From NCBI RefSeq assembly GCF_009914755.1, contig NC_060943.1: a stretch of DNA of 64,000 nt; one strand, written 5' to 3'. Within the stretch, counting starts at the first letter, position 1, and every line of letters begins with the position of its first letter. The notes beneath the pieces were generated by a model. The model was not told where the DNA came from and ran no database searches. It was given only the letters and a program-made list of their open reading frames with translations. The DNA comes from the human T2T-CHM13v2.0 reference genome, Homo sapiens. Position numbers and translations under genes: made by a program. Shown in pieces: positions 1,901 through 2,085 of the stretch.

Positions 1901-2000
1901 AAAAGACAAAAGTAAATCAATAAAATAAAAGCAGAGCTATGAGGCTGGGAAGAGTTCTGAGTCCTTTCCACTAATACCCTCCATGCCCTTCCTTGCAGAT

Positions 2001-2084
2001 ATGGATGCAGAGAGGGAAGCCCTGCAGAGCACTGCCTACCCTGAAGTGCCAGACCTTCTGCCAGAGGCACGGCTTGATGTTTGA
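2001..2084 (+). other. Overlapping uORF / relic ancestral start: [27 protein letters not shown]
   Basis: ATG at 2001, TGA at 2082-2084. The first 16 codons resemble the DUF4062 motif D-x3-ER-x2-L-x3-YP. Confidence 0.75.
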
Positions 2085-2085
2085 G
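2005..2085 (+). CDS. NWD1: NWD1 first coding exon (exon spans 1999-2085): [27 protein letters not shown]
   Basis: Acceptor ccttgcAG at 1997-1998; donor GAG|GTAAC at 2086; phase 0 join to VVDLRWG of the next exon. ATG 2005 is the 5'-most in-frame start in this exon (see the frameshift finding). Confidence 0.85.

What the first reader, a model, noticed from the sequence alone, without database searches (positions are those of the whole stretch)
1999..2085. A +1 frameshift in the first NWD1 coding exon turns the likely ancestral start into a uORF and creates a new N-terminus
Seen: from ATG 2001 the exon reads [16 protein letters not shown], then GTG CC AG ACC TTC TGC. Removing one C at 2049-2050 gives a continuous ...[16 protein letters not shown]|VVDLRWG. 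As written, ATG 2001 ends at TGA 2082-2084 (27 aa). The main frame is reached only through ATG 2005 in the overlap ATGGATG, giving [15 protein letters not shown] before rejoining at QTFC. ATG 2001 has G at +4; ATG 2005 has T at -3 and C at +4 (weak Kozak). The exon starts with AT, which fits a split Asp codon (G|AT). Established: D-x3-ER-x2-L-x3-YP-x4-C...F-x-V-V-D-L-R-W-G is the N-terminal pattern of DUF4062-like domains in NWD2/TEP1-type STAND proteins. I recall the annotated human protein beginning MQRGKPC, which would make this a reference feature and not a read error. Inference: a lineage-specific insertion scrambled the first helix of the putative effector domain and put translation under uORF/leaky-scanning control.
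Basis: partly seen in the sequence, partly recalled or inferred. Interest (0 to 1): 0.88.

Follow-up and report, generated by a model that had tools for sequence, protein, structure and literature searches.

The report
Human NWD1 N-terminal frameshift
Human NWD1 carries one extra base in an early coding exon that cuts the start of its TIR-like effector domain off from the rest of the protein, a break seen in none of the other mammals compared.

Summary
ATG 2001 reads [16 protein letters not shown] and then runs out of frame to TGA 2082-2084. The annotated CDS starts at the overlapping ATG 2005.

Of 124 orthologue proteins held, 105 read one continuous frame, ...AYPEVQTFCQKHGLMFE|VVDLRWG, across the site. 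These include models from chimpanzee, siamang and three New World monkeys. None has the human join. tblastn places the break at one extra base, at 2049/2050.

The full ancestral domain starts in a further exon 3.5 kb upstream (chr19:16862363-16862480). That exon is intact in human, has a consensus donor and is unannotated. It encodes the first beta-strand (IFISST) of the DUF4062/NIR TIR-like fold.

The annotated human protein therefore lacks strand A and half of helix A.

ATG 2005 is the tenth AUG of the mRNA and has a weak context. It lies 4 nt after the strong-context ATG 2001.

The NACHT-WD40 body still looks constrained.

A 2026 preprint notes the truncated human N-terminus in one sentence. 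I found no paper giving its cause, its lineage or the uORF layout.

Not checked: any ape DNA, human polymorphism, and the real start of translation.

The parts
1999..2085 (+). NWD1 exon. It is the first coding exon of the annotated human CDS and the second coding exon of the ancestral long isoform.
   Evidence: canonical AG|AT acceptor and GAG|GT donor. Single copy in the genome. The exon that precedes it in long isoforms of other mammals lies outside the window at chr19:16862363-16862480 (L001:8363-8480): an ATG, 39 codons plus G, and donor G|GTAAGG.
2001..2084 (+). 27-codon ORF opened by ATG 2001, the start of the short isoform in most mammals. It ends at TGA 2082-2084, one base before the exon junction.
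   Evidence: Context G at -3 and G at +4. Orthologues start MDAERE/MDTERE here.
2001..2048 (+). The ancestral-frame part, [16 protein letters not shown]. It encodes the D-x3-ER stretch that follows strand A of the DUF4062/NIR fold. It is out of frame with the rest of the human gene.
   Evidence: 15/16 identical to chimpanzee P0085 and 16/16 to siamang P0081 and Saimiri P0078. Aligns to TEP1 [18 protein letters not shown].
2049..2050 (+). The CC where human has one base more than the orthologue reading frame allows (the frame break).
   Evidence: The tblastn matches end at 2048 and resume at 2050. Orthologues read E-V-Q-T where human DNA reads GAA GTG C CAG ACC.
2005..2049 (+). 15 codons ([15 protein letters not shown]) in the alternative frame. 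This is the annotated human N-terminus and has no homologue.
   Evidence: In a profile of orthologue N-termini the human protein aligns only from residue 14. ATG 2005 has T at -3 and C at +4 and is the tenth AUG of the mRNA.
2050..2085 (+). [12 protein letters not shown]: the ancestral frame resumes and continues into exon 2.
   Evidence: 11/12 identical to chimpanzee, Aotus, Saimiri and Sapajus; 10/12 to siamang.
2042..2044 (+). TGA that ends four upstream ORFs opened in the 5' UTR exon chr19:16859173-16859270. These ORFs run across ATG 2001 and ATG 2005.
   Evidence: AUGs at L001:5176, 5185, 5230 (strong context) and 5263, with 46, 43, 28 and 17 codons.
2077..2079 (+). Next in-frame AUG of the main ORF (Met25), in a weak context.
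   Evidence: Several orthologue models start at the same place, MFEVVDLRWG.
7452..7568 (+). Exon 2: VVDLRWG...IGPAFV, the strand B / BB-loop / helix B region of the DUF4062 remnant.
   Evidence: 39/39 identical to chimpanzee. Aligns to TEP1 IDLRWGVTEEE...LFV.
15236..15533 (+). Exon 3: ALIGDQYG...IDEKEWEV..., the rest of the DUF4062 remnant plus linker. It contains no Met.
   Evidence: The Pfam DUF4062 match on the Saimiri orthologue ends at EKEWEV. Three human-derived substitutions lie here.
20076..20078 (+). Strong-context in-frame AUG (A at -3, G at +4), Met207. It is the start of RefSeq NM_001347994 and of the 1,358-aa human protein used in the 2014 functional study.
   Evidence: PMC4039239 passages.

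Best explanation
A one-base insertion in the CC at window 2049/2050 arose on the human lineage: after the split from gibbons, and probably after the split from chimpanzee. It disconnected both ancestral NWD1 start codons from the body of the gene. One is the ATG of an upstream exon at chr19:16862363, which is still intact. The other is ATG 2001. Those two starts now give dead-end ORFs of 67 and 27 codons ending at TGA 2082-2084. The long NACHT-WD40 ORF can be entered only from the out-of-frame, weak-context ATG 2005 (the annotated start), from Met25 (2077), or from the strong-context Met207 (20076). Whichever start is used, the protein lacks strand A (IFISST) and the first half of helix A of its DUF4062/NIR TIR-like effector domain, so that domain cannot fold as it does in other mammals. 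Shown here: the break, its position, the intact upstream exon, the orthologue frames and the AUG layout. Inferred: the timing, the loss of fold, reduced or shifted initiation, and continued function of the NACHT-WD40 body.
For: Frames and stops. The break is one base wide (matches at 1995-2048 and 2050-2088). 105 of 124 held orthologue proteins read a continuous frame across the site and 0 of 124 have the human join. The 124 include several isoforms per species. They include siamang P0081, chimpanzee P0085, Aotus P0075, Sapajus P0088 and Saimiri P0078. P0085 looks like a true chimpanzee sequence: 39/39, 94/99 and 420/423 identical to human exons 2-4. Eight models with a human-like MQRGK/MRRGK start all carry a shorter alternative-frame stretch than the human 15 residues. 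Otolemur, for example, reads ...LKC-TFC without the Q, as expected if a human protein was projected onto DNA that lacks the extra base. Upstream exon: human L001:8363-8480 encodes MSVGPLSPSTRRRLLRGEAGPLPAPPPSGVTIFISSTVS plus G, with donor G|GTAAGG. tblastn to Saimiri gives E 6e-21. No RefSeq feature lies there and it is single copy. 25 of 124 orthologue proteins carry this exon. Domain identity: the Saimiri N-terminus matches Pfam PF13271 at 36.2 bits against a cut-off of 24.7, over residues 32-130. It matches the solved TEP1 TIR-like domain 11gz_A with E 2.3e-8, starting at [18 protein letters not shown]. In a profile of 11 long-isoform N-termini, the annotated human N-terminus scores 302 bits and aligns only from residue 14. 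A read-through with X at the break plus the upstream exon scores 408 bits over the whole profile. AUG census: (ATG 2005 is the tenth AUG). Constraint: 3 human-derived amino-acid changes in 899 residues of the NACHT-WD40 part, against about 11.7 expected if neutral. The 150-residue remnant has 4, against about 1.9 expected. [quoted passage not shown] Passages of bioRxiv 10.64898/2026.05.01.722283 report that purified full-length human NWD1 had no NADase activity.
Against: I saw no ape DNA. The chimpanzee state rests on one GenBank protein model (P0085), plus two bonobo models that start at exon 2 and are therefore only suggestive. Gorilla, orangutan and macaque proteins were not among the 120 listed of 150 hits. 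Clusters at 90% identity hide their members. I could not check human polymorphism or archaic genomes. That the extra base is present outside CHM13 is inferred only, from the fact that the RefSeq mRNA NM_001007525.5 maps with the same 81-nt coding part. No data on translation initiation were available. The structure predictor was closed, so the loss of fold is argued from homology to TEP1 and the beta-alpha topology quoted in the preprint. The excess of human-derived changes in the remnant rests on 4 against 3 events, and chimpanzee shows a weaker trend the same way (2 against 3, p = 0.15). The short isoform that starts at ATG 2001 in other mammals also lacks strand A, so an incomplete domain may be tolerated more widely. 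The three TEP1 arginines that bind sulphate align to S, L and Q in NWD1 of all mammals seen. The domain may therefore not be an NADase in any mammal, which would lower the functional cost of the break.
Confidence: 0.8

Rival explanations
1. The new N-terminus is a working adaptation. Human NWD1 is made from ATG 2005, the 15 new residues have a function, and ATG 2001 together with the other upstream AUGs acts as a regulatory uORF system. This is the stronger half of the first reader's interpretation.
For: RefSeq annotates this CDS in all full-length transcripts. Two AUGs only 4 nt apart can share initiation (general knowledge, recalled). The remnant shows 4 human-derived changes in 150 residues, which could reflect adaptation as well as relaxed constraint. 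A passage of PMC6560109 lists NWD1 among genes in a 2016 scan for selection in modern humans.
Against: ATG 2005 has the weakest possible context and is the tenth AUG. Five of the nine upstream AUGs open ORFs that run over it. The 15 residues are a frame-shifted reading of a helix-coding stretch and have no homologue. GenBank annotators of the human cDNA chose Met207 instead. No initiation data exist here.
Confidence: 0.2
2. The extra base is a human polymorphism or a reference-specific allele, with the uninterrupted ancestral allele still segregating.
For: Nothing positive. I examined only one genome (CHM13) directly, and population data were out of reach.
Against: The RefSeq Select mRNA, which was built independently of CHM13, maps with the same coding frame. 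The 2026 preprint treats the truncated N-terminus as the human protein. None of the NWD1 paper searches for human-specific, frameshift, chimpanzee or uORF turned up a common frameshift variant. Supplementary variant tables were not open to me.
Confidence: 0.1
3. The frame break is old and shared by apes or by primates generally. The continuous-frame ape proteins would then be products of gene predictors that silently corrected the frame.
For: NCBI's predictor can compensate for frameshifts. One whale model is flagged LOW QUALITY and shows such a mixed N-terminus (P0104).
Against: The siamang, Aotus, Sapajus and Saimiri models are not flagged low quality and read every residue across the site. 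Ensembl-type models of Rhinopithecus, Piliocolobus, Microcebus and Otolemur had to drop residues to join the human-style start to the body. That is what is expected if the extra base is absent from those genomes.
Confidence: 0.07
4. Human NWD1 is a unitary pseudogene in the making and the whole gene is drifting.
For: Both ancestral starts are dead ends. Another human DUF4062 gene, TTC41, is already a pseudogene according to a passage of the preprint.
Against: The downstream ORF is open through every coding exon in the window. It carries only 3 human-derived amino-acid changes in 899 residues, against about 11.7 expected under neutrality (Poisson P = 0.003). A strong-context in-frame AUG at 20076 gives a NACHT-WD40 protein. 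Passages of PMC4039239 describe work with that 1,358-aa human protein.
Confidence: 0.08

Closest known systems
DUF4062 / NIR TIR-like NADase domain of TEP1 (PDB 11gz; Pfam PF13271)
   Same: The ancestral NWD1 N-terminus is a member. It matches PF13271 at 36.2 bits and the TEP1 crystal chain with E 2.3e-8. It shares hFISST, D-x3-ER and DLRWG, and has the same position N-terminal to a NACHT ATPase.
   Different: The annotated human protein lacks the first roughly 25 of the 99 residues the Pfam match covers: strand A and the stretch after it. TEP1 R908, R954 and R976 align to S, L and Q in NWD1. Passages of both preprints report no NADase activity for NWD1.
TTC41P, a human DUF4062 gene annotated as a pseudogene
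   Same: It is a second DUF4062-bearing gene damaged in human but used from mouse in the preprint's assays. Its DUF4062 stretch is still detectable in CHM13 at 26.4 bits on chr12 (that this hit is TTC41P is my inference from its position).
   Different: The preprint passage says TTC41 has many stop codons throughout. NWD1 has a single break near the 5' end and an otherwise open, constrained ORF.
Human-lineage gene-disabling small lesions such as the MYH16 frameshift, the CMAH exon loss and the CASP12 stop (recalled; not checked here)
   Same: A small lesion on the human branch removes an ancestral protein part that other primates keep.
   Different: Here only the effector domain is decapitated and the rest of the protein can still be made from other AUGs. 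Fixation and date are not established.
Overlapping upstream ORFs and leaky scanning at closely spaced AUGs (general translation biology; recalled)
   Same: A strong-context AUG 4 nt upstream of a weak-context main AUG, in another frame, with its stop inside the main ORF.
   Different: This uORF is not an evolved regulator. It is the stranded remnant of the gene's own former start codon. No translation data were available.

Membership tests
DUF4062 / NIR (PF13271) domain, for the annotated human protein | First beta-strand, h-F-h-S-S-T, at the start of the domain | tested here: not met
   The annotated CDS starts at 2005. TIFISST is encoded only in the unannotated upstream exon L001:8363-8480, and that exon is out of frame with the body of the gene.
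DUF4062 / NIR (PF13271) domain, for the annotated human protein | D-x3-ER...L motif after strand A | tested here: not met
   DMDAEREAL is present in the DNA at 1999-2027, but in the frame that ends at TGA 2082-2084. The annotated frame reads MQRGKPCRA there.
DUF4062 / NIR (PF13271) domain, for the annotated human protein | DLRWG and the G-x-x-YG strands that follow | tested here: met
   VVDLRWG (exon 2) and ALIGDQYG (exon 3) are in frame. They align to TEP1 IDLRWG and ILGSRYG.
DUF4062 / NIR (PF13271) domain, for the annotated human protein | Catalytic glutamate | tested here: inconclusive
   IDEKEWEV is retained in exon 3, and the Pfam match on the Saimiri orthologue ends there. The phmmer alignment to TEP1 stopped before E1008, so the equivalence rests on spacing only.
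DUF4062 / NIR (PF13271) domain, for the annotated human protein | Score above the Pfam gathering cut-off | tested here: inconclusive
   The exon-wise human pieces gave no PF13271 match, but they are short. Rules on typing joined sequence meant the spliced human protein could not be handed to the Pfam tool. The six-frame PF13271 scan of CHM13 found TEP1 and a chr12 locus but not NWD1. The long Saimiri N-terminus passes.
DUF4062 / NIR (PF13271) domain, for the annotated human protein | NAD+ hydrolase activity | not testable with these tools
   Passages of two preprints report none for human NWD1 or Drosophila Nwd1 under their conditions.
STAND NACHT-WD40 protein | NACHT P-loop NTPase domain | tested here: met
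   PF05729 at 40.5 bits, E 3.2e-10, on the translation of exon 19956-21224.
Overlapping upstream ORF | An AUG upstream of the main AUG, in another frame, with its stop downstream of the main AUG | tested here: met
   ATG 2001 to TGA 2082-2084 against the main ATG 2005. Four further AUGs in the preceding UTR exon end at TGA 2042-2044.
Overlapping upstream ORF | Evidence that it is translated and lowers main-ORF output | not testable with these tools
Human-lineage-specific lesion | Derived state absent from the closest outgroups at the DNA level and fixed in humans | tested here: inconclusive
   Protein models of chimpanzee, siamang and three New World monkeys read through the site. I saw no ape DNA and no human population data.

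The most novel reading that the evidence does not exclude
The extra base is fixed in humans and arose after the split from chimpanzee. That would make NWD1 a human-specific case of an NLR-like STAND protein whose TIR-like effector domain was decapitated while its NACHT-WD40 body stayed under selection. In mouse, the N-terminal region containing this domain was the bait that bound PAICS, in a study of purinosome assembly in cortical progenitors (passages of PMC7186558). Human NWD1 would then engage that pathway differently from every other mammal, or act from Met207 as an effector-less scaffold. Mouse results on the N-terminus would not carry over to human.
Probability: 0.35. Interest if true: 0.75.

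Novelty: new member of a known kind. Interest (0 to 1): 0.6.

Why it matters
In 2026 DUF4062/NIR was shown to be a TIR-like NADase family that links bacterial antiphage defence with human TEP1. NWD1 is one of the few human proteins that carry it.

If the human copy is decapitated by a lineage-specific frame break, four things follow:
- The negative NADase result for 'full-length human NWD1' says little about the NWD1 family.
- Mouse work that uses the N-terminal region, such as the PAICS binding and purinosome studies, may not carry over to human.
- The true N-terminus of the human protein is open. The literature already uses both a 1,564-aa and a 1,358-aa version.
- The frame-shifted human N-terminus has been copied by projection into gene models of other species, where it is an artefact.

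It would also add a clean, datable candidate to the short list of human-branch lesions in immune-type and neurodevelopmental genes.

Tried and rejected
Pfam on the separate short human exon translations gave nothing for DUF4062. The pieces of 27-99 residues are too short for this to count against homology.

The six-frame PF13271 scan of CHM13 found TEP1 (two exons), a chr12 locus and a weak chr7 hit, but not NWD1. I do not read that as absence, because the domain is split over four exons.

My first guess was that the annotated 5' UTR exon (chr19:16859173-16859270) is the decayed ancestral first coding exon. I rejected this. In the frame that would join G|AT it has a TAA. Its longest reading resembles the odd N-termini of cat X1 and pangolin models. 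The real ancestral exon turned up elsewhere, intact.

The first protein word search, with the 423-aa NACHT exon, returned only 3 proteins because of the length window. I had to chain through a 681-aa whale model and a 1,133-aa seal model. That used all three searches, so I could not target gorilla, orangutan or macaque.

I tried to map TEP1 E1008 onto NWD1 from the TEP1 exons in L002 and L005. The attempt failed because the exon ends before that residue.

I did not use the Atlas search because the family is already known.

Paper searches for NWD1 with 'human-specific', 'frameshift', 'chimpanzee' and 'uORF' found nothing on this break. I did not ask for supplements, which are closed. Three sets could bear on the claims:
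- the NIR-domain alignments and tables of the two preprints;
- the variant tables of PMC6560109;
- the variant tables of PMC12443626.

Full report
THE OBSERVATION. The exon at 1999-2085 has a canonical acceptor (ttccttgcag|AT) and donor (GAG|gtaact). ATG 2001 reads [27 protein letters not shown] and stops at TGA 2082-2084. The overlapping ATG 2005 reads [27 protein letters not shown]. ATG 2005 is the CDS start of the RefSeq Select transcript NM_001007525.5 and of all other full-length models.

COMPARISON WITH ORTHOLOGUES. The word search has a length window, so I had to chain three searches:
- the human NACHT exon found a 681-aa gray-whale model;
- its N-terminal part found five proteins up to 1,133 aa;
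- the first 165 residues of the elephant-seal protein found 150 NWD1 proteins, of which 120 were listed.

In all, 124 proteins are held, with several isoforms per species.
- 105 read one continuous frame over the site, most often ...AYPEVQTFC or ...AYPEVQSFC.
- 9 start downstream of the site.
- 2 are fragments.
- 8 begin with a human-like MQRGK/MRRGK stretch.
- None contains the human join LKCQTFC.

The continuous readers include siamang (P0081), chimpanzee 'NWD1 isoform 5' (P0085), Aotus, Sapajus and Saimiri. P0085 looks like a true chimpanzee sequence: it is 39/39, 94/99 and 420/423 identical to human exons 2, 3 and 4.

The eight human-like starts all have a shorter alternative-frame stretch than the human 15 residues and drop residues at the join. 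Otolemur, for example, reads ...LKC-TFC. That is the pattern expected when the human protein is projected onto DNA that lacks the extra base. I read them as annotation artefacts.

tblastn of the Saimiri protein against the window gives two adjacent matches one base apart: residues 39-56 on 1995-2048 and residues 57-69 on 2050-2088.

THE ANCESTRAL START LIES FURTHER UPSTREAM. Twenty-five of the 124 proteins carry about 40 more residues, MSVGPLSPGTRRRLLQGQAGPLPAPPSSSVAIFISSTVSD, directly before MDAERE. They come from dog, fox, six bat genera, deer, whale, mouse, hamster, a further rodent (Scotinomys), shrew and Saimiri.

In human the annotated exon before 1999 (chr19:16859173-16859270) does not encode this. 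In the joining frame it has a TAA.

tblastn found the real counterpart 3.5 kb upstream of the finding, at L001:8363-8480 (chr19:16862363-16862480). It has an ATG with G at -3, then 39 open codons reading MSVGPLSPSTRRRLLRGEAGPLPAPPPSGVTIFISSTVS, then a G, then the donor GTAAGG. It is 36/39 identical to Saimiri. No RefSeq exon or functional element covers it, and it is single copy.

WHAT THE DOMAIN IS AND WHAT IS LOST. The long Saimiri N-terminus matches Pfam DUF4062 (PF13271) at 36.2 bits, against a cut-off of 24.7, over residues 32-130. It matches the solved TEP1 TIR-like domain 11gz_A with E 2.3e-8: [29 protein letters not shown]... against [29 protein letters not shown]....

Passages of two 2026 preprints show that DUF4062 (renamed NIR) is a TIR-like NADase with a beta-alpha repeating fold. 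It is active in bacterial defence systems and in human TEP1. NWD1, NWD2, TEP1, NPHP3 and TTC41 are the mammalian carriers.

The human break falls after 16 residues of the stretch that follows strand A. The annotated human protein therefore lacks strand A and the D-x3-ER part. That is about 25 of the 99 residues covered by the Pfam match. It keeps DLRWG, GDQYG and the EKEWE region.

I built a profile from 11 long-isoform N-termini. The annotated human N-terminus aligns to it only from residue 14 and scores 302 bits. The human exons read through with X at the break, plus the upstream exon, cover the whole profile at 408 bits. I could not model the fold because the structure predictor was closed. 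The loss of fold is therefore an inference from the central place of the first strand in this kind of fold.

CONSEQUENCES FOR TRANSLATION (sequence shown, function inferred). On NM_001007525.5 the annotated ATG 2005 sits 551 nt into the mRNA and is the tenth AUG.
- Four AUGs in the preceding UTR exon, one in a strong context, open ORFs that run over ATG 2005 and end at TGA 2042-2044.
- ATG 2001 has G at -3 and G at +4. ATG 2005, 4 nt later, has T at -3 and C at +4.
- The next in-frame AUGs are Met25 (2077, weak context) and then Met207 (20076, A at -3 and G at +4), because exons 2 and 3 contain no Met.
- Only two short out-of-frame AUGs lie between 2084 and 20076.
- A transcript starting at the upstream exon would give a 67-codon dead-end ORF.

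The literature already disagrees about the human protein. Passages of PMC4039239 describe it as 1,358 aa (GenBank AAI17699.1), which is the Met207 start. RefSeq gives the ATG 2005 start.

DATING AND CONSTRAINT. The break is absent from the siamang model and from all monkey, lemur and non-primate models. It is also absent from the one chimpanzee model that covers the site. Two bonobo models start at exon 2.

I polarised human-chimpanzee differences with siamang, Aotus and Saimiri.
- Human-derived changes: 4 in the 150-residue remnant and 3 in the 899 residues of the NACHT-WD40 exons in the window (Fisher p = 0.0099).
- Chimpanzee-derived changes: 2 and 3 (p = 0.15).
- Rough neutral expectation, assuming 0.6% divergence on the human branch: about 1.9 and 11.7.

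The body looks constrained (Poisson P = 0.003) and the remnant does not. The counts are small, and this is only a hint.

COMPARISON WITH WHAT IS KNOWN. [quoted passage not shown] That is why the authors used the Drosophila protein. The other preprint purified 'full-length human NWD1' and found no NADase activity.

I found nothing on the cause, the lineage, the intact upstream exon or the AUG layout. The searches were NWD1 with DUF4062, human-specific, frameshift, chimpanzee and uORF. Supplements were closed and I did not ask for them.

The event is a further example of a known kind, a small human-branch lesion that removes part of a protein. The fact of truncation was already noted.

LIMITS.
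- I saw no ape DNA and no human population or archaic data.
- 30 of the 150 hits were not listed.
- Gorilla, orangutan and macaque were not seen.
- No translation data were available.
- No structure model could be made.
- TEP1 R908, R954 and R976 align to S, L and Q in every NWD1 seen. The domain may therefore not be an NADase in mammals at all.
- The short isoform of other mammals also lacks strand A.

The last two points lower the likely functional cost of the break.

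Noticed in passing
L001:8363-8480 (chr19:16862363-16862480, 3.5 kb upstream of the finding and outside the window): An intact, single-copy, unannotated exon. It has an ATG, 39 codons (MSVGPLSPSTRRRLLRGEAGPLPAPPPSGVTIFISSTVS) plus G, and donor GTAAGG. It is the first coding exon of the long NWD1 isoform of other mammals and encodes strand A of DUF4062.
   Followed up: yes
L001:5173-5270 (chr19:16859173-16859270), running into window 2042-2044: The annotated 5' UTR exon holds four AUGs in one frame (one in a strong context). Their ORFs cross the annotated start and end at TGA 2042-2044. The reading MRPMPWEGDHLLKSSRRAMEEPAFQPG resembles the N-termini of cat X1 and pangolin gene models, which are probably the same uORF taken as coding.
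   Followed up: partly
Proteins P0076, P0077, P0101, P0104, P0106, P0107, P0110, P0116 (lion, Otolemur, humpback whale, Rhinopithecus, Microcebus, horse, Piliocolobus): Public gene models of other species start with a human-like MQRGK/MRRGK alternative-frame stretch and drop residues at the join. The frame-shifted human N-terminus seems to have been carried into other annotations by projection.
   Followed up: partly
window 15236-15533 and 2050-2085, against the later coding exons: Human-derived amino-acid changes cluster in the DUF4062 remnant: K6R in exon 1, and V12I, V49F and R95H in exon 3. That is 4 in 150 residues against 3 in 899 elsewhere (Fisher p = 0.0099). The counts are small.
   Followed up: partly
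PDB 11gz_A against NWD1 orthologues: The three TEP1 arginines that hold a sulphate in the active site (R908, R954, R976, per the preprint) align to S, L and Q in NWD1. NWD1 may therefore lack NADase chemistry in all mammals.
   Followed up: partly
window 20076: Met207 has the best Kozak context of all candidate starts. It is the start used for the 1,358-aa human NWD1 of the 2014 prostate-cancer study (PMC4039239 passages). The literature therefore uses two different human proteins.
   Followed up: partly
P0002 (gray whale), residues around 93: The whale model reads ...VSDTDAERE. The Met of the short-isoform start (ATG 2001 in human) is Thr there, so that start is not universal among mammals.
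   Followed up: no
window 1764-1938 and 2109-2575: The 87-bp exon lies between two masked repeats that come within about 60 and 24 bases of it. The downstream one reads like an Alu.
   Followed up: no
PMC6560109 (passage): NWD1 is listed among genes with high-frequency human missense changes that fall in regions from a 2016 scan for selection in modern humans. I could not see which variant is meant, because the supplements are closed.
   Followed up: no
G000:C12:103877228-103877509 (L003) and G000:C7:23104634-23104702 (L004): The six-frame DUF4062 scan of the human genome hit a chr12 locus at 26.4 bits with no stop inside, probably TTC41P, and gave a weak chr7 hit at 18.7 bits. I examined neither.
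   Followed up: no
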